From positions 1 to 55,239 of the IMG/VR virus record IMGVR_UViG_3300045109_000002: a stretch of DNA of 55,239 nt. One strand, written 5' to 3'. A program made the position numbers and the translations under genes. Under the pieces are notes generated by a model. That model was not told where the DNA came from and did not search any database. It worked only from the letters and a program-made list of their open reading frames with translations. The stretch's first letter is position 1. Every line of letters begins with the position of its first letter. This document shows, piece after piece, positions 1,321 through 53,048 of the stretch. The stretch comes from a virus. Lineage: Duplodnaviria; Caudoviricetes.

Positions 1321-1650
1321 TCAACTCACATTCGTGAACTTGAACGGCACCGCTGGCGGGATGGTGCATTTGTCGCAGGGGAGGTATTTGTCACGCAGCA
1401 GGTACAGCACATGCCCGACCCCCGCAACCACGAGCATGCACCACGGATTATACACCTTTGCCACAAGCGAGACAGCAATTGTTGTCCACACTCCCAGGCA
1501 CAGGGGGCACGCTCGCAGCTCACCAAGCAGCTTGCCTCGGAACAGCCGGTCGAACACCTTTCCGTCATGCAGGAGCAACGTTAGGTGCGACTGGGCGGCT
1601 GCCAGGAACAGCACTTGCAATGCGCTCAAGTGTAGCGACATCGTTTCCAA
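1321..1650 (-). CDS. DUF1360-like small membrane protein with CPLC motif and a second CxxC
   Basis: Hydrophobic segments, LGELRACPLCLGVW pattern and C-terminal PCDKC; the start could be 1641. Confidence 0.65.
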   Translation of the reverse strand: METMSLHLSALQVLFLAAAQSHLTLLLHDGKVFDRLFRGKLLGELRACPLCLGVWTTIAVSLVAKVYNPWCMLVVAGVGHVLYLLRDKYLPCDKCTIPPAVPFKFTNVS

Positions 1651-1852
1651 CGGTGACCTCCTGGGTGGCGAATGAGATGATGATGGGCACCGGCAGCCCT
1701 TGCCCGTTGTTGGAAGCTCTGATGCCCGCTTGTAAGATGGGGTCGAAGCCGATTTCGATGGTCTCCACCGTCACCTTGCGGCTCAGCAGGAATTGCAGGG
1801 CAGCCTCGCAGTGCGGGCACCCCTTTTGTACGTACATGCGTATGTCGGCCAT
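1565..1852 (-). CDS. Glutaredoxin/thioredoxin-fold protein (CPHC)
   Basis: IRMYVQKGCPHCEAALQFL and cis-Pro loop LPVPII; GAGG RBS upstream. Confidence 0.85.
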   Translation of the reverse strand: MADIRMYVQKGCPHCEAALQFLLSRKVTVETIEIGFDPILQAGIRASNNGQGLPVPIIISFATQEVTVGNDVATLERIASAVPGSRPVAPNVAPA

Positions 1853-15719: not shown

Positions 15720-16697
15720 TTATGGCATACCTGTAATGCAGACCTGCATCCTGGGGGAGGTACAGGATATTTGCCACTGGAGATATATCTTGGTAACTAC
15801 TACTCTTTGGTTACTAGGCTGCATCCAAGGGTCGAGGGTGAAGTAATCGTTGCCGTTGAAGACCGGGAAGAGGTACTTGCTGTTCAGCAGGTAGCCACGG
15901 GTCGCAGGGCAGAAGGGGTCGGCAATCACGACGGCGTTGTTGTACACGAAGTGATAGCGGAATCCGGCCTGGAGCGCTTCGGTGTCTTGCTCCAGGTTCA
16001 CGAAACGGATGAGAGAGGTGAACTGGTTCTTGAAGCCTGCGAAGTCGGTGTTGGTGAGAACGAAGACATCGGGTTCGTCGTAGCCTAGGACGACAGTTTG
16101 GTAAGCAAGTTCGGCGTTGGCCGGGGTCAGGGTGCCACCAGCGGCGAAGTTGGCTGCGGGCTGCCATGCGGTGGTGACGGTACGGTCGATACCGGCGATC
16201 ACGTTGTTGGTCAGGCGGACCCACGAGTCAATGTCGTCCACGTCGATGGTGGTGTTCTGCGGGGCGGTGTGCCAGACGGCGCGGGCGAGCTTTTGGAGGA
16301 AGGATGCGCCCCCGATTTCCAGCTTGACTTCGACGAGGTCCAGACCAGCGCTGCCACCACGGCCGAGGATGATGTCGGTTACCGGGATGGAGACGTTCTG
16401 GTAGTAAGGGCGCCAGACTTGGTTGGCCGGGACTACCGAGTCGACGACGGTGGTGTTTAGCAACTGGTCGCCGTAGTAGGGGCCACCGGTGGTCTCTTCG
16501 GCGGTTACGAGCGGGAAGACCAGTTCCGCTCCGTAGCGGATGTCCTTACCGTTGCGCATGAGCGCCCAGAAGACCGGCGAGGGCTTGAAGACGATGTCGC
16601 CGATTTCGCCGTGGATATATTTTTGCGCAATGGCATCAAGGGTGTTGATGAGCTGCGCTGTAGGTTGCTGTACGCCAGTTCCGACTATGCCTGCCAT
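15720..16697 (-). CDS. Major capsid protein
   Basis: 325 aa after the scaffold; strong GAGGAG RBS; HK97-fold-like patterns (IAGIDR, PDVFVLT, YLLNSKYL). Confidence 0.8.
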   Translation of the reverse strand: MAGIVGTGVQQPTAQLINTLDAIAQKYIHGEIGDIVFKPSPVFWALMRNGKDIRYGAELVFPLVTAEETTGGPYYGDQLLNTTVVDSVVPANQVWRPYYQNVSIPVTDIILGRGGSAGLDLVEVKLEIGGASFLQKLARAVWHTAPQNTTIDVDDIDSWVRLTNNVIAGIDRTVTTAWQPAANFAAGGTLTPANAELAYQTVVLGYDEPDVFVLTNTDFAGFKNQFTSLIRFVNLEQDTEALQAGFRYHFVYNNAVVIADPFCPATRGYLLNSKYLFPVFNGNDYFTLDPWMQPSNQRVVVTKIYLQWQISCTSPRMQVCITGMP

Positions 16698-19429: not shown

Positions 19430-19872
19430 CGTTCGCGCTCATGAGGGCAGTAACCAAGAATTCCACGAGCACAATTGCAATTGAAACACAGACAACGGAA
19501 CTCATCTTGTGGATACCCGTGCCGCTCTAACCAGCGGTAGAGCGTCCACCCTGTAATATGCCTCTTATGGGTAGCATCTTTACGACCATTCACATGGTCG
19601 ATGGTGAGGAACCATTTGCCAGTCTCACCACAACATTTACACCTGTACCCATATGCCGCAAACACCCGGTCCCTCAGAGCTTCGTGCCAAGCCTTTTGCC
19701 TCCGCTGAACTTTTTTTGCATTTTTGGCATACCACTTACGTTGGTACACTTTTAGCTTTTCAGGGTGGGCTTTATGCCAAGCTGTATTGCGCGCAAGAAT
19801 CGTTTTGCGGTGTGCCACGTCAGTGTGGTACTTCACACGTTTGCGTTGTGCGTACTCTGCGGACTTGTCCAT
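19426..19872 (-). CDS. Free-standing HNH homing endonuclease
   Basis: YGYRCKCCGE...LTIDHVNG...CLCFNCN; lower GC than neighbours. Confidence 0.85.
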   Translation of the reverse strand: MDKSAEYAQRKRVKYHTDVAHRKTILARNTAWHKAHPEKLKVYQRKWYAKNAKKVQRRQKAWHEALRDRVFAAYGYRCKCCGETGKWFLTIDHVNGRKDATHKRHITGWTLYRWLERHGYPQDEFRCLCFNCNCARGILGYCPHERER

Positions 19873-21575
19873 CAGCGCGGCCTTTTCAGTTTCGTCAAAG
19901 CGGACAACTGCATTTGTTGCTCTTGGACCTCACTTATTTCTTGGTGACCAGGAATGTCTAGCATCTCCAGCGCATATTTCAATGGCAGATGGCCCTTGTC
20001 CAGCAGGGCCAGGACCAATCGCCGCATGCTCGAAGCGCTGATGGCTTGGGTTGATGCGGGGTCCAGGTAGATGTCGTAGTCATCGTAGATGGTGGCTATC
20101 GAGGACCAGGTGATGAGGTCACTGCCGCCTTTGTTGTCGAACTTCGGGAAGCGGTAATCGTCGTAGTAGCGGGCCATGGTGTAGAAGACCATCTCCGAGA
20201 GGTCTTGTACGGACTCGCTCAGGATGCGCATGCGCAGGCGGGTCATGCGCGAGGATTCGCTGGCGGTGTAGTCGGCCAGGTCGGCAGAGGTGTTGCCTTG
20301 TCCTTGCTGGCCGCCACGGGCGCCTTGCATGCCCAGGAGTTCTTTTTGCTTGGTGAGCAACATTTCGGGCAGCGCGGTCATGTGTTGCGGCATGGCGTTG
20401 GGCCACTTTACTTCTGGAAATTGACTGCCTCGGTTGATTACGCGGATTTCAGCAGGGATGCCCCCGAAGTCGTCAGCCGAGATGCCGGTGTCTTCGTGAA
20501 TGAACCAGATACCGTTGTTCAGGCGGACAGCGTTCTCGAAGGTTTGTGTGAGCATGCGCTCAGCCAGGAACTGCAAGCCGCGAGTATAGCGGATGCCCGG
20601 CGGCGCCCAAAAGCTGCCCAGAGAAGGCATGCCATGAAAAGGCACAATAGGAAAACGGCCCATGGGATAAGGGTTCTCACCGTCGGCAAGCAGTACCTCC
20701 TCGCAGTCGATCAGGTAGCGGCCGTTGGGCCACTTGGGTTTGTGCTTTGGAGGCGTTACGAGCGGGCCGAGTTGTTCGGCCATGCGTTCTCGTTCTTCTT
20801 TGGAGATTTCCTCGGTGGTGAAGTCGCGGATGAAGGTGTGACGGACGGTGACAAGAGGGTTCGGTTCGGGCTGGCGGTTGCCGCCATAGGCGGAGGCGTA
20901 GCGCATTGCGCCGGGGGTCATTCGGAAGCTGGGTGAGACCTCAGAGGTCCCTATCGAGAAGGTGGAACCTTTGCGGGGGCGGACGGACCAACCACGCTCG
21001 GGCCAGCGCTTGCGTACTTCGTCGATGTACATGATGTCGACGTATTGGACGTAGAGCCACTTTTTCGGGTCGCGGCTGGCAGGGTCGGGATAGACAGTGT
21101 CGGGGTCGCGCGATTCTATCCAGACTTCACCACGGCCTCGGCGGGCGTCCGGGTCGAAGCCTACTTGTGCGAAGCCGGTGCCTGCGAACAAGGCCCAGAT
21201 GTCTATTTCCATCAGGCGGTTGTTGAAGTGCATTTGCTTCCAATGTTCTTGGAAGGCGGTTTCGCGAGGTGCGTCACGCTTGCCGTCCTTGAGCAGGAAG
21301 ATGCGTGGTGAGGCGTCGCTGATGTCCGTGGCTTCGTTCAGCAAGGCGATTTGCAGGTCGGGGATTTGGATGCGCGGGCGGAAGTTGGGGCTGGTCCAGG
21401 CTTGCGTGGCAGAGTCCATGGCGAAGAAGCGGCGCAGGTCGCCGAAGAATCCTGTGCCGAGTTGTTTGTCACGCTCCTCTTGGGAGAGGCGCGTCAGTTC
21501 GTCGAGCTGGCGGATGATGACGAGGTCGGGGTTTTCTTCGGCGGTCTTGCGCCTGACGAAGGTGGTAACGGCCAT
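19872..21575 (-). CDS. Portal protein
   Basis: 567 aa between TerL and scaffold; GTGFAQVGFD, DPDTVYPDP and FPIVPF patterns typical of P22-like portals. Confidence 0.82.
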   Translation of the reverse strand: MAVTTFVRRKTAEENPDLVIIRQLDELTRLSQEERDKQLGTGFFGDLRRFFAMDSATQAWTSPNFRPRIQIPDLQIALLNEATDISDASPRIFLLKDGKRDAPRETAFQEHWKQMHFNNRLMEIDIWALFAGTGFAQVGFDPDARRGRGEVWIESRDPDTVYPDPASRDPKKWLYVQYVDIMYIDEVRKRWPERGWSVRPRKGSTFSIGTSEVSPSFRMTPGAMRYASAYGGNRQPEPNPLVTVRHTFIRDFTTEEISKEERERMAEQLGPLVTPPKHKPKWPNGRYLIDCEEVLLADGENPYPMGRFPIVPFHGMPSLGSFWAPPGIRYTRGLQFLAERMLTQTFENAVRLNNGIWFIHEDTGISADDFGGIPAEIRVINRGSQFPEVKWPNAMPQHMTALPEMLLTKQKELLGMQGARGGQQGQGNTSADLADYTASESSRMTRLRMRILSESVQDLSEMVFYTMARYYDDYRFPKFDNKGGSDLITWSSIATIYDDYDIYLDPASTQAISASSMRRLVLALLDKGHLPLKYALEMLDIPGHQEISEVQEQQMQLSALTKLKRPR

Positions 21576-22210: not shown

Positions 22211-22384
22211 TCATGGGCTGGAATGGCGGTCCTCCTTTGGTGGTGAGGGTGGTAAGGGTTGACAGTTGATGCAGCGCCATTGTTTTTGTGGTTCGTCGTG
22301 GGTAACGAGGTACATGTCGCTGTGGCAGTGGATGCATTGGGGTGCCGAGGATGGTGCGGGGGATGCGGGCCAAGCTAAGGTCAT
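22211..22384 (-). CDS. Small zinc-ribbon protein
   Basis: ATGA overlap with the TerL stop; CIHC...WRCINC. Confidence 0.5.
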   Translation of the reverse strand: MTLAWPASPAPSSAPQCIHCHSDMYLVTHDEPQKQWRCINCQPLPPSPPKEDRHSSP

Positions 22385-24126
22385 ATACCTTCCAGTCCTG
22401 ACGGGCGGCCGGAGCGGGAACGCATGGCTCGCATCGTCAATTGATAGTGGCGGCGCAGGCTCAGTTCGACAGGTTCTTGCGGGCGAATGCCCATGGCGCC
22501 GAGCGGGGAGTAGGCGGCACTGTCGTCGATGTCGGGTTTGCGGGAACGGTTGGTGACGCGTGGCGGGGGCCATTGGGACATGGCGATGACACCCAGCATA
22601 GCGGCGAATAGGATGTCGTCGTTGCCGCGTTCGACTTCCCACATGAAGCCTTCATAAAAAGTGGCATTGTCCATCTGTTGCACGAGGGCATCGTCGTAGA
22701 TCGCTAGACCTCCTTCTTCGTTGCGCATGCCTGAGCGGACCCCGGCCCTGAAGGTGTCGAATAGTTTGCGGCGTGAGGCGGATGTGGTTTCCCAGCCGAT
22801 CAAGGGGAGGCCGGTGCGCGCGCCAGGCTTGCGGTCGTCTTTACCTTTCCAGATATAGAAGTTATTGTAACGGTAATCATCGCGCAGCACTTTCAAGGCG
22901 TGACGGCCCAGGTTGCCGGTCAGTTCGATGTTTACCATCGCTTTGTTGTAGTACTGGCCGATGAGGTTGAGTTGGTCGGCTAGGTGCTCAGGGTGGATGC
23001 GGTCGGCGTAGCGGGCTACTTGTTCGCCAGTGGTGCCGTCGAAGACTACGTAAGCGGCAAAGTCGCCGTCTTCGATACCGGTGGCGGCGTCGGCTCCTAC
23101 GTAGTAGTAGTGGCGCAGCTCAGGGGGGCGCCATATGTGGAGCAGGCCGTTCCTGACTTCCTCGAAGGTGACACGGTTTAGAGCGGGGTCCCAGCGGACT
23201 CGCCCACGCTTGAGGGGCTTCTCGCAGGTCGAGCGAACGTAGATGATTTCTTCGCGGGGGAAGGCCGGGTCGCCTGAAGCGACGAAGGCTACTTCGGGAG
23301 TGTGTGGATATTCCTGCATCATTTTCGGCAGCAGACCTTGGCACTTGTCCTCTAGTGTGCGGCGGAACCAGGCAATTTGTGGTTTGGTGGCGTGGAAGTC
23401 GCGCATGAGTTCCCGTTCGATGTCGCTTGCAGGAGCGTCGGCGGCTTCGTCGGCGGGTCGGATACAGGCGGGGTCGTCGAGCCAGGGGAGAAAGATGGGG
23501 ACGTAGCCGTTCTTGCCAGCGACTGCGCTATTCCAGAAGTCATAAAACGCTTTACCAGGGCCGACACGGCCGTTTGCAGTTGATTCAATCGCGACAAAGG
23601 TGTCGTCGCCGTCTGACACAGCAGGCAGCAGCGACAAGAAGGAGTCTTCCCCAGGGAAGAAAGCGGCTTCGGACAGGTGCACAAATGATAGCGTAAGGCC
23701 ACGTCCGCCGATGACAGAACCTGCTGTTGAAATGTCAAGGATAGAATCGCCGTCGGGGTGCGGGACGATGATGCGCCGGGTGCGGACATCTACGACTGTA
23801 TTACCATAAGGGAGGCCGGAAACCAAGTCGCGCGGGACGCGGAAGAGGCCCTCGGCGGTGGACTGGAGGTGGGCGACGATTTTGGCGTGGGCCTGAGGGC
23901 GGGCGAGGCAGTGGAGAAGGCCGAGAGAGTCCATCAGTGAGGACATGCCCACGCGTCGAGCTTTGAGGATGATGGTGCGGCACATGCCGATGTCATCGTA
24001 TTGTTCTTCCAGCATGCGCATGGATTTTTGCTGGTTGGCGTTCAGTTTGAACCTGATTGTTCTACCCGTGTCACGGTCTTTGATGGGCAGCTTGGCGAGT
24101 AGTGTTATAGCATTCGTGAGGTTCAC
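22381..24126 (-). CDS. terL: Terminase large subunit
   Basis: Walker A ILKARRVGMS, Walker B VHLSEAAF, coupling motif ESTANG, RNase H-like nuclease residues YVGADAATG and NDDILFA. Confidence 0.95.
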   Translation of the reverse strand: MNLTNAITLLAKLPIKDRDTGRTIRFKLNANQQKSMRMLEEQYDDIGMCRTIILKARRVGMSSLMDSLGLLHCLARPQAHAKIVAHLQSTAEGLFRVPRDLVSGLPYGNTVVDVRTRRIIVPHPDGDSILDISTAGSVIGGRGLTLSFVHLSEAAFFPGEDSFLSLLPAVSDGDDTFVAIESTANGRVGPGKAFYDFWNSAVAGKNGYVPIFLPWLDDPACIRPADEAADAPASDIERELMRDFHATKPQIAWFRRTLEDKCQGLLPKMMQEYPHTPEVAFVASGDPAFPREEIIYVRSTCEKPLKRGRVRWDPALNRVTFEEVRNGLLHIWRPPELRHYYYVGADAATGIEDGDFAAYVVFDGTTGEQVARYADRIHPEHLADQLNLIGQYYNKAMVNIELTGNLGRHALKVLRDDYRYNNFYIWKGKDDRKPGARTGLPLIGWETTSASRRKLFDTFRAGVRSGMRNEEGGLAIYDDALVQQMDNATFYEGFMWEVERGNDDILFAAMLGVIAMSQWPPPRVTNRSRKPDIDDSAAYSPLGAMGIRPQEPVELSLRRHYQLTMRAMRSRSGRPSGLEGI

Positions 24127-31710: not shown

Positions 31711-31953
31711 ATGCCTGACAAGGTGTGGACTGTGGTGCGCATGAACGCCGAGGGTGTGGACGATGTGACCATCACGTCTGACCTGTCCAGGTTGGAGCGC
31801 ATGAATGAGAAGACCTTCTGGGTGGCTGTGTATCGAGGTGACAAAAGGGTGACCTTCGCCATCAGCAGCGAGACGCTCATAACCGTCACTGTCACTGAAG
31901 ACGAGCTTGGCTGTGTGGACGACACAACGTCAATGGAGGAAGCCGATGTCTGA
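31711..31953 (+). CDS. Hypothetical protein, first gene of the ATPase operon
   Basis: AAGGAG RBS after an AT-rich intergenic stretch. Confidence 0.7.
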   Translation: MPDKVWTVVRMNAEGVDDVTITSDLSRLERMNEKTFWVAVYRGDKRVTFAISSETLITVTVTEDELGCVDDTTSMEEADV

Positions 31954-33349
31954 CCAAGATGTGGAAGTGTTGTTGCGAGAAGCCCAGGAGACCATCAAGC
32001 GGCAGCAGCAGATGCTGGAGGAGTTGACTGCCATACCTGCGAAGGTGGCCAGTGTGGTGGGCATCAAAGGGGAGCAGGTGCTCTTGAGCAATGGGAGCGT
32101 GGTGCCCATGCCTGCCGAGAAGGTGAAGGCTGGTGAGATGGTGCAGGTGGCGCCTACGGGGATGGTGGTCGCCAAGCTGCCCTTCGAGAGCTATGGGCAG
32201 TCGGGGACGGTGGTCAGGATTGAAGGGGGAGTGTTTCAGGTGGCTGCTGAACAGGGGGTGTTGACCATTGGGGCCTCAAGGGTGCCGGTCGAGGTGGGCG
32301 ACGAGGTGGTGCTCGATGGGACAGGGTTGGTGATTGCGCACAAGTTCACGAGACCTCCGCAGCATGCCTTTACGGCTGACACCCATGTGGGGTGGGACGA
32401 TATTGGTGGGCTTGAAGAGGCCAAGTTGGCCCTCAGGGAGGCAGTCGAGATGCCTTATACGCATGCTGCCCTGTTTAAGCACTTTGGGAAGCGTCACCCC
32501 CGTGGGGTACTGCTCCACGGGTTGCCTGGTAACGGGAAGACCATGCTTGGGAAGGCGACGGCGACGGCGATTGCTAAGGCACATGGTAAGACCACCGTAC
32601 CAGGTGCCTTCATTTACATCAAGGGACCTGAGCTGTTGAGCAAGTGGGTGGGTGAGAGCGAGAGCATGATAAGGGGGCTGTTTGAAGGTGCACGAAAGCA
32701 TCGTGCGCGCCATGGGTATCCGGCCGTGATCTTCATTGATGAAGCAGACTCGCTACTGACGGCGCGCGGCACGCGCACCGCAGGCGGGATGGAGCACACC
32801 ATTGTGCCTCAGTTTTTGAGCGAGATGGACGGGTTAGAGGAGTCAGGGGCGATTGTGTTGCTGGCCACCAACAGGGCGGACATGCTGGATAGCGCGGTCA
32901 CGCGTCCTGGGCGGATAGACCGTAAGGTCTACGTCGCCCCGCCTGACCTGAATGCCGTCATTCGCATCTTTGCCATCCACCTGAAGGGGGTGCCGGTGGT
33001 GGGCGAGAACCTCCCTGGGTATGGGGCGAATGTGCTGTTTAGCGATGCCTTTCCGTTGTATCAGTTGCGGACCTCGAAGGGGACCATGGTGTTCCATGTG
33101 CACCATGCGGTGTCGGGGGCGATGGTGGCTGGGTTGGTGGAGCAAGCGAGTGCGAAGGCCATTCACAGGTGCGTGGCGGCCAAGGTGAAGACCGGCGGAG
33201 TGTGCGAAGGAGATGTTGATGAGGCGTTCCGTTCGGTCTACATGGAGCACTTGAGAGGAACGCACCAGGCTGAGTTGGAGGATTATGCGGACAGGCATGG
33301 GTGCACCATTGAAGCGGTAGCCAAGGTGCAGGGGGTGGTGCAGGGATGA
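31946..33349 (+). CDS. ARC/Mpa-like proteasomal AAA+ ATPase
   Basis: N-terminal coiled coil, two OB-like segments, Walker A GLPGNGKT, pore loop KWVGESE, Walker B IFIDEAD, TIVPQFLSEMDG, SRH ATNR...RPGRID, and VSGAMV typical of ARC. Confidence 0.85.
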   Translation: MSDQDVEVLLREAQETIKRQQQMLEELTAIPAKVASVVGIKGEQVLLSNGSVVPMPAEKVKAGEMVQVAPTGMVVAKLPFESYGQSGTVVRIEGGVFQVAAEQGVLTIGASRVPVEVGDEVVLDGTGLVIAHKFTRPPQHAFTADTHVGWDDIGGLEEAKLALREAVEMPYTHAALFKHFGKRHPRGVLLHGLPGNGKTMLGKATATAIAKAHGKTTVPGAFIYIKGPELLSKWVGESESMIRGLFEGARKHRARHGYPAVIFIDEADSLLTARGTRTAGGMEHTIVPQFLSEMDGLEESGAIVLLATNRADMLDSAVTRPGRIDRKVYVAPPDLNAVIRIFAIHLKGVPVVGENLPGYGANVLFSDAFPLYQLRTSKGTMVFHVHHAVSGAMVAGLVEQASAKAIHRCVAAKVKTGGVCEGDVDEAFRSVYMEHLRGTHQAELEDYADRHGCTIEAVAKVQGVVQG

Positions 33350-33383
33350 CTTTGACTGGGCAGGTGTGGAAGGCAGGTGAGTC

Positions 33384-33656
33384 TTGCCAATACGCAAGTA
33401 CCGTCCTAGCGGTGACACAGGCAAGGGCGAGGGTGAGGGTGATGCGGAGTTCACGACAGTAGAGGTACCTCCGGTGAGCGAGGTAAGTGAGAGGCTGGCA
33501 CAGGCGCTCCAGCAGCAACCGAGACCTTGCGGGGTGGGATGTTGGTGTGACGAATGCCTGTATCGGGGGTGTGAGGGGCATGTTGGGCTAATTTTGACCA
33601 GGGCAGAGTACCTGTCAGGTGTGCGCAGGAATGTGAAAAAGGAAGGTGAAAAATGA
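33384..33656 (+). CDS. Small protein with disordered Pup/UBact-like N-terminus and Cys-rich C-half
   Basis: MPIRKYRPSGDTGKGEGEGD...VPPVSEVSERL...CGVGCWCDEC. Confidence 0.5.
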   Translation: MPIRKYRPSGDTGKGEGEGDAEFTTVEVPPVSEVSERLAQALQQQPRPCGVGCWCDECLYRGCEGHVGLILTRAEYLSGVRRNVKKEGEK

Positions 33657-33886
33657 GCGAACAGGTTGGTGGCGGCCGAGGTGGACAGGAGAGGGTGAAG
33701 AGGCCGGTTGGCCCTGACGTGGGTGACATAGACACTGACGATGAAGTGGTCAGGGTCGACCCTGGGTCTACTGTGGACATGGAACGCAAGCTCAAAGAGG
33801 CTGCTGACAGGGTGGCGAAGGAGAAAGCGCGAGAGGCCGCAACAATCGCCGCCAGAAAGAAGAGGCGCGCATGTTGCTGTTGCTGA
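33653..33886 (+). CDS. Small protein, Pup/UBact-like, ending in CCCC
   Basis: AAGGAAGG RBS; GGGRGGQERVKRP, acidic linker, helix, RRACCCC. Confidence 0.55.
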   Translation: MSEQVGGGRGGQERVKRPVGPDVGDIDTDDEVVRVDPGSTVDMERKLKEAADRVAKEKAREAATIAARKKRRACCCC

Positions 33887-34263
33887 AGTTGGGTATAGAG
33901 AGTCTCGCGGTGGGTAGCATCAGCATGACCCTCACCCGTAGCCGCCTGTTTCGCGAGACACGCTGGTGGCTGGCGCGGGAACGCAAACATTGGCCTCATG
34001 AGGTCGTTTGGGACCTGGTTAAGTGCCCCTGGTGCCTCAGCCATTGGCTAGGATGGGTCGTAGTGGCCCTTGCGGGGCCGCTAGACGTGACATCGCACTG
34101 GTGGCTGGATTTTGTACTCAACTGGTTCACTATCGTCGCTCTGGCACCTGTGAGCGCGTTTCTCATTCATCGCATTTATGGTGCCCTCCCACCTGTCCCT
34201 AGCGAAGCCGAGTGGCACGAGGTCCCCGACACAGTCAACGCAGCAGAGGAGATTCACCAATGA
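33871..34263 (+). CDS. DUF1360-like membrane protein (CPWC)
   Basis: LTRSRLFRETR...DLVKCPWCLSHW; hydrophobic helices. Confidence 0.75.
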   Translation: MLLLLKLGIESLAVGSISMTLTRSRLFRETRWWLARERKHWPHEVVWDLVKCPWCLSHWLGWVVVALAGPLDVTSHWWLDFVLNWFTIVALAPVSAFLIHRIYGALPPVPSEAEWHEVPDTVNAAEEIHQ

Positions 34264-48026: not shown

Positions 48027-48281
48027 ATGCACAAAGTAATGCGAAACTACTGGATTGGCGTGGCGCTGATGGTTGGCAACACGCTGCTGTTGGCTCTCAA
48101 CGTTTATAGGCACAACTGGTGGGCAGTAGCGGTGAATGGCGCCACCGCCATCGGCGTAGCGCTAGGCATGAAATGGCTGATCGAGACGGCCCATTTTGTC
48201 GGCTACGGTGATGGGCTCGACTGGGCCAAAGACACGTTGCGAGAGACTATGAATGCAGCCACAAGGTCCACATTGCGGTAG
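48027..48281 (+). CDS. Two-TM small membrane protein
   Basis: Two hydrophobic segments; GGAGG RBS. Confidence 0.6.
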   Translation: MHKVMRNYWIGVALMVGNTLLLALNVYRHNWWAVAVNGATAIGVALGMKWLIETAHFVGYGDGLDWAKDTLRETMNAATRSTLR

Positions 48282-51200
48282 TTGCCCTTACAGCTCAGGC
48301 GAACGCTTCATCCCTGCCGATGGCAGTGGCAGCAGTGGCATCCTGCTGGTTGGCGACAGCCCATGGGTTGACGAAATAGCCGCTGGGCGCCCTTTCGCTG
48401 GCGCCGCTGGCCGCACCCTCGACCGCATCCTCTCGCTCATGCCTGGCGGTGGGATGGCTCGTGGCGACCTCACTGTTGCCAACACCATCTGGTGCAAGCC
48501 TCCATACCTGCGCTGGATGGACAAGCCCCATCGTGACGCTGTTGCGGCCATCGAACACTGCCGCCCCAACCTGGACGAGCTTATCTACGCACGCAAGCCC
48601 AAGGTCATCGTCCCCATGGGCAACGTGGCACTGAGGAGGGTTTGTGGCGTATCGGGCATTGAAGAACGCGCTGGCTACGTCCTACCAACGCCTTATGGCA
48701 TCCCTGCGGTGCCTACGTATCATCCGGCTTATATTCAGCGTGGTAAGCAAAACCTCGTACCAGTTGTCCTTTGGGCGCTCCAGCGGGCGGGGCAGATTGC
48801 CGATGGTTCATTCACTCCATCTGTATATTCGCTGCTGGTGGACGCTCCTCCCGAAAGTGTGCGCGATTACCTGGCGTCATCGGGAAGCCATATACCAAGC
48901 CTCTTCGTTGACATTGAAACTCCCGAATCCGCTGCCCTAGACGAGGAGGACCTGGAGGAGGATGGCCCATCGTATACCATCGTCCGTGCAGGTTTCTCGG
49001 TGCGTGCTGGGACGGCCTGTTCATTCCCGTGGGAGCAGCCTTACATAGACATCATGCGTGAGGCCCTCTCGCGCGCTGAGGAGGTCGTAGAATGGGCGGA
49101 CCATCACTTCGATACCCGAAGACTTGCTGCGGCGGGCCTCGCGATGCCTGCCAGGATTGTATCGGCCATGTGGGCGTGGCACTGGTTGCAAAGCGATTTG
49201 CGGAAAGGGTTAGGTCTGGTGGCGCCATTTTTCTATGCCGGGCCGCCTTGGAAGCACTTGAGCGCAGCCGAGCCGGGGCGCTACAACGCCTTAGACAACG
49301 CGATTGGATTCGACTGCTACTCAGGTACACGGGCAGCGTTACAATCCCAGGGAAGGTGGGACGCCTTTAACAGGCACTGCGTAGACTTCGCTCCTGTCCT
49401 CCAAGCGATGGGCCGCAAAGGCTTGCGTATCGACCGTGCTTACCAGACGGCCTTCATGGCTCAACTTGAGACTGAGTGGGACGTATCGAACACCAAGTTG
49501 CAGACCTTCGTCCCTGACGCCATCAAACCACGCAAACAGTGGAAACGCCCCCCGAAGGACTTGACCGGCGTCACCGAACTGCCTGTGCCTTCACCAGAGC
49601 AACAAATGATTCTCACCGGCGCCGCAGATAAACTAGGTGAGCTACTGGCCGACCTGTCTGCACCTGGTGCTGGTCGCTCGTCGTCCTACCCGGACGACTC
49701 GCTCCATATAACTGAGAGTGCTCACAAGCGCCTGACCGTCACACCTTACCGTTACGAACGCATCGAGCCTTTCAATCCCGACAGTTGGCCGCAAGTGACG
49801 GCCCTCGCGAAGCACTTAGGTATCAAACTGCCACCGCGTGAATCGGCCAAGGAGAGCGACGAAGAAGCCCTCGCAACGGACAAGAAAACTCTAGGCAAGT
49901 ACGCCAAAAAGTACCCCGCCATCGCCTGCATCCTGAAGTGCCGCGAACGCTGGAAGCTCATTTCGACTTATAAGTGGAAGCTCGACGCAGACGACCGCGT
50001 CCACTATGTGCTGGGGTACCACCCGTCGACATGGCGTTTATGTATCGCTGAAGGCACTCCCGTGGAGATTGCCAGAAACCTACGGACTAACCCTGACGCA
50101 CCACCTATTGAAAAGGTGAAGCCTGGTGATTGGGCTTACACCTATGATAACGCTGGTAGGCTTACCGTTCGTAAGGTTGCATGGGTCAAAAAGACCGGCA
50201 TCCGTAAAGTGGTCCGTGTCCATTGGGAGGCAGGGTACGGGCCGACAATGCGGCAGGGTTATACTGACATGACGCCGGACCACCTTGTGCGGCTTGCCGA
50301 CGGTTCATGGAAAGAGGCTCAACGATTAACCCCCTATAATAAAGGGACGTGGAAGCACCGAGGTTATCCTAAAGGCGGCAAAGGTGATTCTTTGACGGCC
50401 ATGAAGCGTGGTGTCACGACTGCTCTAGGATATTCCATACTGCACACCACAGGGCGTCGTGAAGCCGTTAGAGACAACCGCGTCGTCTACGAAGGAGCTA
50501 CCGGTAAATACGCGGAGCACGTCCACCATATAGACGGTGACAAACTGAACAATCTACCAGACAACCTGCAAGGGTTGGACCGTGACGAACATGGGCACTT
50601 AACAGGGTCGGAGAGGTGGGCAAGGGAGGTAACAACAGCCAAGCGCGTAGGCCCAATGCAGGCACAAGCCCGTAAAGAGCTGCGAGAGCATCTGGAGCGT
50701 ACAAAGTATCCGAAGCCAGTACCATACTGCCGGTACGTACCGAACAACCATCGCGTCATGAGAGTCGAGAAGTTGGATACCCCTGTTCCGGTGTACGATT
50801 TGGAGGTAGAAGAGACTCATAACTTCATTGCTGGAGAAATATGCGTACACAACAGTTGCCGAAACGCAAACCTGCAAACCATCCCCAAGCGCAGCGACCT
50901 AGCGCGCCTCTTCAGGCGCATGATCGTCGCGACACCGGGCCACAAACTGATCGAGGGAGACTCGGCGGCGATAGAGGCAGTCTTGGTTGGCTACTTCGCC
51001 GGGTCGGCACGATACAGGCGGCTGGCCAAGTGTGGCGTACATGGGTGGCTTACAGCGAAACTGCACGGATTGGAAATCCCCCTGACCCTGGAGGACTCCG
51101 AGTTGCAGAGGCAATCGAAGCTCTCGAAGAAACAGTGGCCCGAGGATTACGAGAAGATGAAACGCGTGGTGCACCTGTCAAATTACCTCGGCACAAAAAG

Positions 51201-51741
51201 GCGCATCCATGAGGAATATCCTGACGACTTCCCGACTGAGCGCGAAGCCGCTAAGCTACAGCAATTCTACCTTGGCAGCGACCCCGGCCAAGACGTGCGC
51301 GCCTGGCAAAAAGCCACCGTCGAACTGGCCCATGCCTCGAAAGCGCTCGAAAACAACTTCGGCCTGCGCCACCGTTTTTATAGCCTGTATGCCTGGAACG
51401 CCCGCCGCTCGACGTGGGAATTCGGCGACGACGCCAAGCGGGCTGTTGCGTTCCGCCCACAGTCTGCTGCTGCGGCCATCCAGCGCATCATCGTGCAACG
51501 CCTGCTGGAACGCATGCCTCAAGCGCTCCAATGGCTCTGCCTGCTGGTCCACGACTCCATCATCGCCGACGTGCCGGACGCTCATGTCGATGAGTACTGT
51601 ACAGCCCTCTACGAAGCGATGACCTCGCCCATCGACGAACTCGAAGGGCTGACCATTGGCGCTGAGATGCTGATGGGCGACAACGCCGCGCCAGCCGACC
51701 AGGACAACGAAAAGGGCATGCGCGAGTGGCTGCCACGTTAG
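48253..51741 (+). CDS. polA: Family A DNA polymerase with N-terminal family-4 uracil-DNA-glycosylase domain and 3'-5' exonuclease; contains an intein
   Basis: UDG: CGSC, GDSP...GRPFAGAAG, TYHPAY. Exonuclease: DIET, HFD, YNALD. Polymerase: motif A EGDSAAIE, motif B KRVVHLSNY, motif C VHDS. Confidence 0.92.
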   Translation: MQPQGPHCGSCPYSSGERFIPADGSGSSGILLVGDSPWVDEIAAGRPFAGAAGRTLDRILSLMPGGGMARGDLTVANTIWCKPPYLRWMDKPHRDAVAAIEHCRPNLDELIYARKPKVIVPMGNVALRRVCGVSGIEERAGYVLPTPYGIPAVPTYHPAYIQRGKQNLVPVVLWALQRAGQIADGSFTPSVYSLLVDAPPESVRDYLASSGSHIPSLFVDIETPESAALDEEDLEEDGPSYTIVRAGFSVRAGTACSFPWEQPYIDIMREALSRAEEVVEWADHHFDTRRLAAAGLAMPARIVSAMWAWHWLQSDLRKGLGLVAPFFYAGPPWKHLSAAEPGRYNALDNAIGFDCYSGTRAALQSQGRWDAFNRHCVDFAPVLQAMGRKGLRIDRAYQTAFMAQLETEWDVSNTKLQTFVPDAIKPRKQWKRPPKDLTGVTELPVPSPEQQMILTGAADKLGELLADLSAPGAGRSSSYPDDSLHITESAHKRLTVTPYRYERIEPFNPDSWPQVTALAKHLGIKLPPRESAKESDEEALATDKKTLGKYAKKYPAIACILKCRERWKLISTYKWKLDADDRVHYVLGYHPSTWRLCIAEGTPVEIARNLRTNPDAPPIEKVKPGDWAYTYDNAGRLTVRKVAWVKKTGIRKVVRVHWEAGYGPTMRQGYTDMTPDHLVRLADGSWKEAQRLTPYNKGTWKHRGYPKGGKGDSLTAMKRGVTTALGYSILHTTGRREAVRDNRVVYEGATGKYAEHVHHIDGDKLNNLPDNLQGLDRDEHGHLTGSERWAREVTTAKRVGPMQAQARKELREHLERTKYPKPVPYCRYVPNNHRVMRVEKLDTPVPVYDLEVEETHNFIAGEICVHNSCRNANLQTIPKRSDLARLFRRMIVATPGHKLIEGDSAAIEAVLVGYFAGSARYRRLAKCGVHGWLTAKLHGLEIPLTLEDSELQRQSKLSKKQWPEDYEKMKRVVHLSNYLGTKRRIHEEYPDDFPTEREAAKLQQFYLGSDPGQDVRAWQKATVELAHASKALENNFGLRHRFYSLYAWNARRSTWEFGDDAKRAVAFRPQSAAAAIQRIIVQRLLERMPQALQWLCLLVHDSIIADVPDAHVDEYCTALYEAMTSPIDELEGLTIGAEMLMGDNAAPADQDNEKGMREWLPR
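50041..50853 (+). mobile_element. Intein (271 aa) with HNH endonuclease domain
   Basis: Starts CIAEGTPV, block B TPDH, HVHHIDGDKLNN...NL, ends VYDLEV..THNF...VHN/S; interrupts the conserved RL|SxxxxNLQxIP motif. Confidence 0.92.
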
Positions 51742-52916: not shown

Positions 52917-52990
52917 GGCCTTGTAGCTCAACCGGATAGAGCAGCGGAGTTCTAACCCGCCGGTAGCGAGTTCGACTCTCGCCAGGGCCA
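52917..52990 (+). tRNA. tRNA-Arg (anticodon UCU), CCA not encoded
   Basis: Acceptor GGCCTTG/CAGGGCC, D arm GCTC/GAGC with A20, anticodon loop GTTCTAA, T arm GCGAG-TTCGACT-CTCGC. Confidence 0.88.
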
Positions 52991-53048
52991 CTAGTTTTCA
53001 CGGTGAGCCTCCCGTGACAAGAAGGAGGCAGGTTAGCCACGATGGCTT

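What the first reader, a model, noticed from the sequence alone, without database searches (positions are those of the whole stretch)
31711..34263. Phage-encoded proteasome-ATPase module with two Pup/UBact-like, Cys-tailed small proteins and a CxxC membrane protein
Seen: a compact operon with an AAA+ ATPase of coiled coil-OB-OB-AAA layout and ARC/Mpa-like motifs (FIYIKGPELLSKWVGESE, TIVPQFLSEMDG, VSGAMV). It is followed by 90- and 77-aa proteins and then a DUF1360-like CPWC protein. Each small protein has a basic RxRP start, a Gly/acidic disordered linker and a short helix. Known: ARC/Mpa binds Pup through its coiled coil, and Pup and UBact have this disordered-then-helix design but end in Glu/Gln for PafA ligation. 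These two carry Cys clusters instead (CGVGCWCDEC; RRACCCC), and I see no PafA, Dop or 20S genes in the window. Inference: a ligase-independent system in which Pup-like adaptors or decoys deliver host targets to a phage unfoldase, or jam the host Pup/UBact-proteasome. The Cys tails may bind targets through metal or disulfides with help from the CxxC membrane partner. The Pup/UBact resemblance is by eye and only moderate.
Basis: partly seen in the sequence, partly recalled or inferred. Interest (0 to 1): 0.88.

Follow-up and report, generated by a model that had tools for sequence, protein, structure and literature searches.

The report
Phage Mpa-like unfoldase, Cys-tailed microproteins, membrane partner
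This phage carries a widely conserved but undescribed gene cassette: a motor protein built like the bacterial proteasome ATPase, one or two tiny proteins that end in a cysteine pair, and a small membrane protein with a matching cysteine pair, all without any proteasome or tagging enzyme.

Summary
The window is a roughly 95%-complete phage record. At 31946-34263 it encodes an AAA+ ATPase, two small paralogous proteins and a DUF1360-like membrane protein.

- **ATPase:** its best family and fold match is Mpa/ARC, but it falls below the family cut-off.
- **Missing partners:** the record has no Pup, Pup ligase or 20S gene.
- **Cassette:** ATPase, Cys-tailed microprotein and CPxC membrane protein recur in 43 loci (phages and candidate-phyla MAG contigs).
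- **Invariant residues:** across 36 microproteins only Met1 and C-x-C are invariant. Across 31 membrane proteins only C-x-x-C is invariant.
- **CCCC:** it is not a by-product of gene overlap.
- **Pup and UBact:** similarity to Pup is sub-threshold but falls on Pup's Mpa-binding helix. UBact similarity is not supported.

My best reading, which is inferred, is a ligase-free, Pup-like adaptor. Its front half works with the unfoldase and its Cys tail couples, through a metal or a disulfide, to the membrane protein.

Earlier agents of this scan described the same cassette on other DNA. My four literature searches found nothing on it in print.

The parts
31711..31953 (+). 80-aa ORF just upstream of the ATPase, overlapping its start. 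No family match. It is conserved only in the closest relative and is not part of the widely conserved cassette.
   Evidence: ORF; no Pfam or PHROG hit; phmmer hit only in L001 (E 1e-24).
31946..33349 (+). Mpa/ARC-like single-ring AAA+ ATPase, 467 aa (the longest ORF starts at 31907). It has an N-terminal helix, two small beta (OB-like) units, a classical AAA domain with Walker A GLPGNGKT, Walker B VIFIDE and pore loop KWVG, and a C-terminal domain. It ends in ...VVQG, with no aromatic docking motif.
   Evidence: PF00004 at 112 bits. TIGR03689 at 260.6 bits over positions 22-509 of 512, against a cut-off of 504.75; model with pLDDT 82.4. Mpa chains at TM 0.64-0.72 and 25-27% identity; motifs.
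33384..33656 (+). Small protein 1, 90 aa, which I call class Z. It has a basic N-terminus (RKYRP), a Gly/acidic linker and a short helix, then C-x4-C-x-C-x2-C-x4-C-x-H, then a 23-residue basic tail. It is a paralogue of small protein 2, and its CWC aligns with the family's C-x-C.
   Evidence: 24.5 bits against a family HMM built without the window and L001 sequences; the best of 200 shuffles scored 5.2. Orthologues keep the Cys/His pattern: L001 and P0188.
33653..33886 (+). Small protein 2, 77 aa, which I call class T. It has a basic/Gly N-terminus (VKRPVG), an acidic stretch, a long helix and a polybasic KKRR, and it ends in CCCC at the very C-terminus. It belongs to an unannotated microprotein family defined by a terminal C-x-C.
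   Evidence: 17.1 bits in the leave-out test; the best shuffle scored 5.4. P0152, 96% identical, keeps CCCC; 201 clusters at E<=1e-3; 141 of the 150 listed have at least 2 Cys in the last 10 residues.
33871..34263 (+). DUF1360-like membrane protein, 130 aa, with three predicted transmembrane helices. CPWC sits at the start of helix 2, after a Lys/Arg-rich loop that is predicted to be cytoplasmic. The C-terminus is acidic.
   Evidence: PF07098 at 16.5 bits, below the cut-off of 21; 30 of 31 family members hit DUF1360, best E 3.9e-9; the only invariant residues are the two Cys; hydropathy and charge profile; model pLDDT 90.6, with no PDB fold match at E<=0.001.

Best explanation
The locus is one member of a conserved, self-contained three-part module found in phages and candidate-phyla (CPR) MAG contigs. 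The parts are an Mpa/ARC-like hexameric unfoldase, one or more Pup-like microproteins, and a DUF1360-type membrane protein.

**Shown**
- The three genes travel together in variable surroundings.
- The only invariant residues of the microprotein are its terminal C-x-C.
- The only invariant residues of the membrane protein are its C-x-x-C.
- The module occurs without Pup ligase, deamidase or 20S genes.

**Inferred**
- The microprotein is a non-covalent, ligase-free adaptor. Its basic disordered N-terminus and acidic helix engage the unfoldase, as Pup engages Mpa.
- Its C-terminal cysteine pair is clasped to the cytoplasm-facing CPxC of the membrane protein. The clasp would be a shared metal ion (a zinc clasp like Lck CxxC with CD4/CD8 CxCP) or a disulfide.
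- The motor is therefore tethered at the membrane, or pulls on the membrane protein. With no protease present, the outcome would be unfolding or remodelling rather than degradation.
- In this phage the adaptor is duplicated. One copy ends in CCCC. The other carries extra Cys/His ligands and may form its own metal site.
For: **1. Co-conservation**
- Starting from the ATPase: 17 of 31 viral loci and 15 of the 80 kept genome loci have the DUF1360 gene just downstream.
- The Cys-tailed ORF lies between the two genes in 16 of 18 viral loci (window included) and 15 of 15 genome loci.
- Starting from the membrane protein: 18 of 53 viral loci have the ATPase upstream, and all 18 carry a Cys microprotein.
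- No other gene is shared across the 33 loci clustered.

**2. Complementary invariance**
- Only M1, C and C are invariant in A2 (36 sequences).
- Only C52 and C55 are invariant in A3 (31 sequences).

**3. Modular co-variation**
- 17 of 18 Bacteroidales loci keep the ATPase plus a microprotein with the same basic start and helix, but lack both the Cys tail and the membrane gene.
- Loci without the membrane gene that still have a Cys microprotein carry versions with three or more Cys (L024-26, L028, L011, L019, L046).

**4. ATPase**
- Mpa is the best fold match and TIGR03689 the best family.

**5. Pup-like front half**
-. These matches are sub-threshold, but they fall on the Mpa-binding helix.

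**6. Topology**
- Loop 1 is net positive in 27 of 31 membrane proteins, which places CPxC on the cytoplasmic side.
- The microproteins have no hydrophobic segment.

**7. Precedent**
- A passage in PMC7355011 describes the CxxC plus CxCP zinc clasp.
Against: - No binding was shown by any method.
- The Pup similarity is not significant on its own (best E 0.046 and 0.28). The window's small 2, once its Cys part is removed, scores no better than shuffles (6.7 against a maximum of 6.7).
- The ATPase N-helix is net acidic in 17 of 20 family members, and the microprotein helix region is acidic too. Simple charge complementarity therefore favours the basic membrane loop over the coiled coil.
- In 16 of the 35 phage loci where the DUF1360 gene has no ATPase, it instead follows a membrane-anchored thioredoxin-like gene. 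In this window a second DUF1360-like gene follows a glutaredoxin gene. This points to redox chemistry rather than a static clasp, and the thioredoxin-like domain is probably periplasmic, which clouds the topology.
- The Bacteroidales loci form one clade, so their loss of both the tail and the membrane gene counts as a single event.
Confidence: 0.42

Rival explanations
1. Catalytic thiol-disulfide relay. The DUF1360 protein is a membrane thiol oxidoreductase. The C-x-C tail of the microprotein is a mobile shuttle pair, in the way CXC motifs mimic protein disulfide isomerase. The unfoldase presents or unfolds client proteins for oxidation or reduction during infection.
For: - DUF1360-like genes in phages sit repeatedly next to thiol-redox genes. 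This window has a glutaredoxin (PF00462, 31.9 bits, CPHC) directly upstream of its second DUF1360-like gene.
- A thioredoxin-like WCxxC gene lies immediately upstream in 16 of the 35 loci without an ATPase. Pfam Thioredoxin passed its cut-off in 2 of the 3 tested.
- CGC is the commonest tail, in 95 of 150.
- The redox activity of CXC has precedent. I saw the abstract start of bioRxiv 10.64898/2026.01.27.701630 and the title of Woycechowsky and Raines 2003 in a reference list.
Against: - No cofactor or quinone site is evident. The membrane protein model matches neither DsbB nor VKOR nor any other solved fold.
- The cytoplasm is reducing.
- Class Z microproteins have Cys/His patterns typical of metal sites.
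- This reading does not explain the Pup-like front half, or why an unfoldase is needed.
Confidence: 0.2
2. Sequestered regulator or substrate. The microprotein is a built-in substrate, or a plug or activator of the ATPase. The membrane protein only holds it away from, or releases it to, the motor as a timing switch, for example for membrane permeabilisation late in infection.
For: - The co-conservation and Cys complementarity cited for the best explanation apply here too.
- The basic, disordered N-terminus looks like a pore-entry segment.
- Two adaptor paralogues in one operon suggest regulation.
Against: - The cassette lies among early and replication genes, not next to lysis genes.
- There is no direct evidence for a switch.
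Confidence: 0.15
3. The small proteins are Pup/UBact-like decoys or adaptors that feed host targets to the phage unfoldase, or jam the host Pup/UBact-proteasome.
For: - The ATPase is Mpa-like.
- There are sub-threshold Pup matches on the Mpa-binding helix.
- No ligase is present in the phage.
Against: - There is no UBact similarity.
- The window proteins give no Pup family hit.
- Relatives of this ATPase lie in a Bacteroidales genome and a Saccharibacteria genome without a Pup ligase. The Saccharibacteria one carries the full cassette. A host Pup system is therefore not required.
- The phage brings its own ATPase.
- This reading does not explain the invariant pairing with the CPxC membrane protein.
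Confidence: 0.1
4. The small ORFs are not functional partners. Their adjacency is incidental, and the Cys tail is a by-product of overlap with the next gene.
For: In the window the CCCC codons overlap the MLLLL start of the membrane gene.
Against: - L001 keeps CCCC although its membrane gene starts about 85 nt later. P0152 keeps it too.
- C-x-C is invariant in 36 of 36 aligned sequences and present in 150 of 150 listed representatives, within the last 12 residues in 140 of them.
- The background for such tails is 5.2%.
Confidence: 0.03

Closest known systems
Mpa/ARC with Pup (Pup-proteasome system of Actinobacteria; TIGR03689, PF05639; PDB 3m9d, 5kwa, 7px9)
   Same: - The ATPase has the same overall layout and fold: an N-terminal helix, two beta units, an AAA ring and a C-terminal domain.
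- A small, largely disordered partner is encoded next to it. Its helix aligns, below threshold, with Pup's Mpa-binding helix.
   Different: - The ATPase scores 260.6 bits against a cut-off of 504.75, is only 25-27% identical to Mpa, and lacks a penultimate-Tyr docking tail (the motif is recalled, not from a call).
- The partner ends in C-x-C or CCCC, not Gly-Gly-Gln/Glu.
- There is no PafA, Dop or 20S.
- An obligatory CPxC membrane protein is added.
UBact-proteasome operons of Nitrospina and Nitrospira (seen here in L078-L085)
   Same: An Mpa-like ATPase is encoded with a small disordered tag protein.
   Different: - Those operons carry two Pup-ligase homologues and proteasome subunits beside the ATPase, and their tag ends in ...RTG[QE].
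- Their ATPases form a separate clade, about 31% identical to the window's.
- The tag shows no profile similarity to the microproteins.
Zinc clasp of Lck (CxxC) with CD4/CD8 tails (CxCP)
   Same: A C-x-C at the end of one chain is paired with a C-x-x-C of another chain at the cytoplasmic face of a membrane (passage in PMC7355011).
   Different: That system is eukaryotic and its proteins are unrelated. Metal binding here is only inferred from motifs.
CXC redox motifs and thiol relays (CXC as a PDI mimic; the C-terminal Cys-Gly-Cys shuttle of Erv2 and the poxvirus cytoplasmic disulfide relay, both recalled)
   Same: - A flexible terminal Cys-Gly-Cys works with a CxxC active site.
- Viruses are known to encode their own thiol relays.
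- DUF1360 genes pair here with glutaredoxin-like or thioredoxin-like genes.
   Different: - No flavin or quinone domain was recognised.
- The fold of the membrane protein matches no solved oxidoreductase.
- An AAA+ unfoldase is part of the unit.
FtsH and other membrane-anchored AAA+ machines
   Same: A classical-clade AAA ring would be held at the membrane.
   Different: Here the anchor would be a separate protein linked through an adaptor. There is no protease domain, and the N-domain is Mpa-like.

Membership tests
Mpa/ARC proteasome ATPase (TIGR03689 equivalog) | Full-length HMM score at or above the curated cut-off | tested here: not met
   260.6 bits against a cut-off of 504.75. It is nevertheless the best-scoring family and the only one aligned end to end (positions 22-509 of 512).
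Mpa/ARC proteasome ATPase (TIGR03689 equivalog) | Architecture of coiled-coil helix, two OB domains, one AAA domain and a C-terminal domain | tested here: met
   helix 3-28, beta units 33-78 and 83-133, then AAA; the best PDB matches are Mpa chains over about 470-490 columns at TM 0.64-0.72. The N-domain alone gives no sequence hit, and the C-terminal 115 aa hit TIGR03689 at E 0.0011.
Mpa/ARC proteasome ATPase (TIGR03689 equivalog) | C-terminal 20S-docking motif with a penultimate aromatic residue (recalled: GQYL / HbYX) | tested here: not met
   the protein ends in ...AKVQGVVQG.
Mpa/ARC proteasome ATPase (TIGR03689 equivalog) | Genomic association with Pup ligase/deamidase and 20S subunits | tested here: not met
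   none in the 55-kb record; none is co-conserved across 33 cassette loci; present beside the Nitrospina/Nitrospira ATPases, and absent from genomes G004 and G005.
Mpa/ARC proteasome ATPase (TIGR03689 equivalog) | Falls in the same clade as ATPases of bona fide Pup/UBact operons | tested here: inconclusive
   FastTree on 110 sequences and 328 profile columns. The 7 Nitrospina/Nitrospira ATPases form their own clade apart from all 33 cassette ATPases. No actinobacterial ARC could be included, the root is uncertain, and support values were not assessed.
Pup (PF05639) | HMM match at or above 27 bits | tested here: not met
   no hit for the window proteins; 3 of 36 family members hit at E<=10, best 0.046; the family profile finds Pup chains at E 0.28-2.1.
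Pup (PF05639) | C-terminal Gly-Gly-Gln/Glu for ligation | tested here: not met
   the ends are ...RRACCCC and ...KKEGEK; the family ends in C-x-C.
Pup (PF05639) | Disordered protein whose helix binds the ATPase coiled coil | not testable with these tools
   the Atlas model has pLDDT 0.54 and the aligned helix covers about residues 33-77, which fits disorder followed by a helix. Binding needs an experiment or a multimer model of the N-domain ring.
UBact | Sequence-profile similarity to UBact, and a C-terminal ...R-x-G-[EQ] | tested here: not met
   hhalign of A2 against the UBact alignment A4 gives probability 0.4% and E 0.15. The tails differ.
DUF1360 (PF07098) | HMM match at or above 21 bits | tested here: inconclusive
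   the window protein scores 16.5 bits (E 0.0087), below the cut-off; 30 of 31 members of its alignment match at E<=0.01, best 3.9e-9; phrog_781 at E 1.4e-5.
Classical AAA (PF00004) | AAA domain with Walker A, Walker B and an aromatic pore loop | tested here: met
   112.1 bits. GLPGNGKT, VIFIDE, KWVG.
Intermolecular zinc clasp | C-x-C on one chain and C-x-x-C on the other, both on the same side of the membrane, sharing one metal ion | not testable with these tools
   The motifs are present and invariant, and both are predicted to be cytoplasmic. Metal content cannot be computed.

The most novel reading that the evidence does not exclude
This would be a ligase-free, cysteine-coupled counterpart of pupylation. 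Pup-like microproteins attach reversibly through their terminal Cys pair, by a shared metal or a disulfide, to a CxxC-bearing membrane protein and possibly to other targets. They then hand those targets to an Mpa-like unfoldase that works without a proteasome. Phages and ultra-small bacteria would use this to remodel or extract membrane proteins.
Probability: 0.22. Interest if true: 0.9.

Novelty: new variant of a known kind. Interest (0 to 1): 0.72.

Why it matters
- **A new way to couple proteins to an unfoldase.** The known routes are enzymatic tagging (ubiquitin, Pup, UBact) and degron recognition. A genetically compact module may replace the ligase with a cysteine clasp. It would give a new principle for targeting proteins, and a small three-gene system that could be reconstituted.
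- **A first functional handle on DUF1360.** In phages its CxxC is always partnered with a soluble Cys-pair protein.
- **An unannotated microprotein family.** It has about 200 clusters at 50% identity, and annotation pipelines leave it unnamed.
- **A correction to annotation.** Genes labelled 'proteasome-associated ATPase' in phage, CPR and Bacteroidales records do not imply a Pup-proteasome pathway.

Tried and rejected
- **Complex prediction.** Membrane protein (A3), zinc and microprotein (A2, the scored partner) gave 'no answer', score 0.00 twice. This is evidence neither for nor against binding.
Neighbourhoods were taken from the search for related loci instead.
- **tblastn of the membrane protein** against 50,697 phage records found no match.
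- **tblastn of the ATPase** against the same collection matched 89 records, none covering 80% or more of the query. The Brevundimonas phage genes annotated 'proteasome-associated ATPase' have a different N-domain and no cassette.
- **PADLOC** gave only generic AAA hits (IetA, TRIP13) and nothing for the other genes. I dropped a defence-system reading.
- **Fold search of the membrane model:** 0 matches at E<=0.001.
- **ESM Atlas on small 2:** only generic single-helix neighbours.
- **Promoter and terminator scan:** nothing above shuffles that defines the operon.
- **UBact comparison:** negative.
- **Pup HMM six-frame search in five cassette genomes:** one weak hit on the microprotein ORF of L035 (E 0.17), one hit elsewhere, and three genomes with none.
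- **Literature.** The searches were 'DUF1360' (2 papers, neither on this cassette), 'proteasome-associated ATPase' plus 'phage' (3 papers, irrelevant), 'AAA ATPase forming ring-shaped' plus 'bacteriophage' (0), 'UBact' plus 'proteasome' plus 'Mpa' (0) and 'UBact' alone (41 papers, none of the 10 listed relevant). Supplementary files were not consulted.
- **RiPP-precursor reading of the Cys tails:** rejected, because no modifying enzyme is co-conserved.
- **Tree:** no actinobacterial ARC, PAN or FtsH references could be added, because I held no such sequences from a tool.


Full report
**What the window is.** The window is a complete virus record of 55,239 bases, estimated about 95% complete. 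Structural genes lie on the minus strand at about 1-24 kb: large terminase 22381-24126, portal 19872-21575 and major head protein 15720-16697. Small early genes and replication genes lie on the plus strand. The finding sits in the plus-strand block.

**The observation.** All ORFs and quoted motifs are present.
- The ATPase most likely starts at ATG 31946 and is 467 aa, as in the database entry P0001.
- Small protein 1 (33384-33656) uses a TTG start behind a GGTGAG box.
- Small protein 2 (33653-33886) starts in an ATGA overlap with the stop of small 1, behind AAGGAAGGTGA.
- The membrane gene (33871-34263) overlaps the end of small 2 by 16 nt.
- The whole record has no Pup_ligase, Proteasome or Pup match, and control genomes did give matches.

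**The ATPase.**
- *Family matches.* Pfam sees only a classical AAA domain (112 bits). Among NCBIfam models the best hit, and the only end-to-end one, is TIGR03689 (proteasome ATPase): 260.6 bits over positions 22-509 of 512. That is far below the cut-off of 504.75. CDC48, PAN and FtsH models match the AAA core only.
- *Structure.* An AlphaFold model built on 20 homologues has pLDDT 82.4. It shows a helix at 3-28, two five-stranded beta units at 33-78 and 83-133, the AAA domain and a C-terminal domain. Its best PDB matches are M. tuberculosis Mpa chains over about 470-490 columns, at TM 0.64-0.72 and 25-27% identity. Eukaryotic Rpt subunits come next.
- *Domains tested alone.* The N-domain gives no sequence-family hit, and the C-terminal 115 residues hit TIGR03689 at E 0.0011.
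- *Motifs.* Walker A, Walker B and the KWVG pore loop are intact. The protein ends in ...VVQG.
- *Relatives.* The ATPase belongs to a coherent family 40-76% identical over its full length. The family is found in 31 viral contigs of 13-530 kb and in MAG contigs labelled Saccharibacteria, other candidate phyla, Bacteroidales and others.
- *Tree.* In a FastTree of 110 sequences, the seven Nitrospina/Nitrospira ATPases form a separate clade from all 33 cassette ATPases. Those seven sit beside Pup-ligase homologues, proteasome subunits and a UBact-like gene. No actinobacterial ARC could be included and the root is uncertain. The family is therefore Mpa-like in build, but it is not shown to be an Mpa orthologue.

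**The cassette.**
- *Starting from the ATPase.* A DUF1360-like gene lies just downstream in 17 of 31 viral loci and in 15 of the 80 genome loci kept.
- *The ORF in between.* A 56-104 aa ORF lies between the ATPase and the membrane gene. In 16 of 18 viral loci (window included) it has at least 2 Cys in its last 10 residues. The two exceptions, L003 and L013, carry the Cys pair further from the end. All 15 genome loci have such a tail. The background is 5.2% of 1744 ORFs of similar size in all frames, and 1.9% of 429 ORFs of 150 aa or more.
- *Starting from the membrane protein.* Of 53 viral loci, 18 have the ATPase upstream, and all 18 have a Cys microprotein. The filter found 14; L159 and L160 were found on inspection; L126 has an inserted gene; L127 is the same contig as L013. 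Ten of these contigs were new, so the total is 43 cassette loci.
- *No other shared gene.* All-against-all clustering of 33 loci found no other shared gene. The module is self-contained and moves between contexts.

**The microproteins.**
- *Alignment.* Thirty-six sequences align with a basic start followed by P-x-G-x-G, an acidic stretch with a helix (consensus like vPevDdvLxeiDxAL), a variable spacer, and C-x-C. Apart from Met1, the two Cys are the only invariant columns.
- *Two forms.* I distinguish class T, with C-x-C at the very end (window small 2, with CCCC), from class Z, with C-x-C followed by further Cys/His (window small 1; also L001, L003, L129, L024-26, L028).
- *The window proteins are true members.* Against a family HMM built without the window and L001 sequences, small 2 scores 17.1 bits and small 1 scores 24.5 bits. 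The best of 200 shuffles scored 5.4 and 5.2. With the Cys part removed, small 1 still scores 16.5. Small 2 scores only 6.7, equal to the best shuffle.
- *CCCC is not an overlap artefact.* L001 keeps it although its membrane gene starts about 85 nt later. A 96%-identical protein from another contig keeps it too.
- *Family size.* A full HMMER scan of 1.84 billion representatives finds 201 clusters at E<=1e-3. Of the 150 listed, 141 have at least 2 Cys in the last 10 residues, the other nine carry the pair further in, and Cys-Gly-Cys is the commonest form (95).
- *Annotation.* None of 36 matches a Pfam family at E<=0.01 apart from one spurious hit. All 33 database relatives are unnamed or called 'hypothetical'.

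**How Pup-like are they?**
- The window proteins give no Pup hit.
- At a permissive threshold, Pup is the only Pfam family hit by more than one of the 36 members (3 members, best E 0.046).
- The family profile searched against 177,635 PDB sequences returns 12 hits at E<=10. Four are Pup chains (E 0.28, 0.45, 0.73 and 2.1). They align on the part of Pup that is co-crystallised with Mpa's coiled coil, and on the Gly-rich N-terminus.
- In one 0.7-Mb cassette genome, the only six-frame Pup-HMM hit falls on the microprotein ORF (E 0.17). In four others it does not.
- This is suggestive given the Mpa-like neighbour, but it does not prove homology.
- UBact taken from the Nitrospina/Nitrospira operons shows no similarity (probability 0.4%).

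**The membrane protein.**
- *Family.* Thirty of 31 family members match DUF1360, best E 3.9e-9. The window protein is sub-threshold at 16.5 bits.
- *Invariant residues.* The only invariant residues are the two Cys of C-P-[YW]-C.
- *Topology.* Hydropathy shows three helices. The loop before the motif is Lys/Arg-rich and net positive in 27 of 31 sequences, which places the motif at the cytoplasmic end of helix 2.
- *Fold.* The model is confident (pLDDT 90.6) but matches no solved fold at E<=0.001.

**Evidence on who pairs with whom.**
- *Front half with the ATPase.* Seventeen of 18 Bacteroidales loci, some on contigs of 0.2-1.1 Mb, encode a microprotein right after the ATPase. It has the same basic start and helix motif, but no cysteine, and no DUF1360 gene follows. 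So the front half goes with the ATPase, and the Cys tail goes with the membrane protein. These loci are one clade, so this is one evolutionary event.
- *Extra cysteines where the membrane gene is absent.* Loci without the membrane gene that keep cysteines have three or more of them. This fits a need for four ligands, supplied either in trans or in cis.
- *DUF1360 with other thiol proteins.* DUF1360 genes that lack an ATPase follow a membrane-anchored thioredoxin-like gene in 16 of 35 loci. Pfam Thioredoxin passed its cut-off in 2 of the 3 tested. The window's second DUF1360-like gene (1321-1650, minus strand) follows a glutaredoxin gene (1565-1852; PF00462, 31.9 bits). DUF1360 is therefore repeatedly the partner of a soluble Cys-pair protein. 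This can be read as metal sharing or as thiol-disulfide exchange.

**Mechanism.**
- *Most likely reading (confidence 0.42).* The microprotein is a ligase-free adaptor between an Mpa-like unfoldase and the membrane protein. The basic tail and helix face the motor. The C-x-C is clasped to CPxC by a metal, as in the Lck-CD4/CD8 zinc clasp (passage in PMC7355011), or by a disulfide.
- *Inferred steps.* Which surface of the ATPase is used, the chemistry of the clasp, and the consequence (tethering or pulling) are all inferred.
- *Cautions.* Both the ATPase N-helix and the microprotein helix are acidic. The thioredoxin-like partner of the other DUF1360 branch is probably periplasmic.

**Novelty.** My searches found nothing on the cassette in print. 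Earlier agents of this scan described the same cassette on other DNA. One of their notes led me to test the Pup helix, and I confirmed that only at sub-threshold level.
- the tandem class T and class Z pair in one operon;
- the Cys-less, membrane-less Bacteroidales variant;
- the thioredoxin- and glutaredoxin-coupled DUF1360 loci;
- the count of the family (201 clusters).

Noticed in passing
window 1321-1852 (- strand): A glutaredoxin gene (1565-1852; PF00462, 31.9 bits; CPHC) lies directly upstream of, and overlaps, a second DUF1360-like gene (1321-1650; CPLC). The pair sits between two large tail-fibre-like genes.
   Followed up: partly
L121, L131, L132, L134, L140, L146, L148-L150, L153, L155, L156, L158, L161, L162, L164: In 16 of the 35 phage loci with a DUF1360-like gene but no ATPase, the gene immediately upstream encodes a thioredoxin-like WCxxC protein with an N-terminal anchor. 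In the locus I checked (L121) a GpA-type large terminase follows downstream.
   Followed up: partly
L049, L053-L057, L059-L069 (Bacteroidales MAG contigs, up to 1.1 Mb): These loci carry a chromosomal-looking variant: an ATPase of about 600 aa, plus a 55-70 aa microprotein with the same basic start and helix. It has no cysteine, and no DUF1360 gene follows. The one genome tested (G004) has no Pup ligase.
   Followed up: partly
L001 6325-6627: The closest relative has an extra 100-aa ORF between the ATPase and small protein 1. The window has no counterpart.
   Followed up: no
ATPase C-termini in L004, L009, L012, L013, L018, L020, L029, L032, L037, L038: Many family ATPases end in Ala-Ala, Val-Ala or Thr-Ala. 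The window's ATPase ends in Val-Gln-Gly. The meaning is unknown.
   Followed up: no
L005 8295-9854 and 6325-6731: This 125-kb phage contig has a second ATPase-family ORF about 2 kb downstream, and two tandem class T microproteins (ending in CTCW and CGCF).
   Followed up: no
L084 4857-11228: This is a complete Nitrospina operon: Mpa-like ATPase, Pup-ligase homologue, proteasome-like subunit, a 58-aa UBact-like protein ending in RTGQ, a proteasome subunit, and a second ligase homologue. I used it as the UBact reference.
   Followed up: yes
window 48253-51741: The 1162-aa DNA polymerase ORF carries HNH endonuclease matches at residues of about 700-795, ahead of the polymerase match at 868-1144. 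This could be an inserted homing-endonuclease or intein-like segment.
   Followed up: no
window 52917-52991: A tRNA-Arg (anticodon TCT) is encoded by the phage.
   Followed up: no
L145-L148, L158: Short ORFs of about 35 aa lie 100-200 nt upstream of the DUF1360 gene, and three of them end in a shared P-x-R-C-x-[FY]-x-x-C pattern. They could be chance ORFs or another Cys partner.
   Followed up: no
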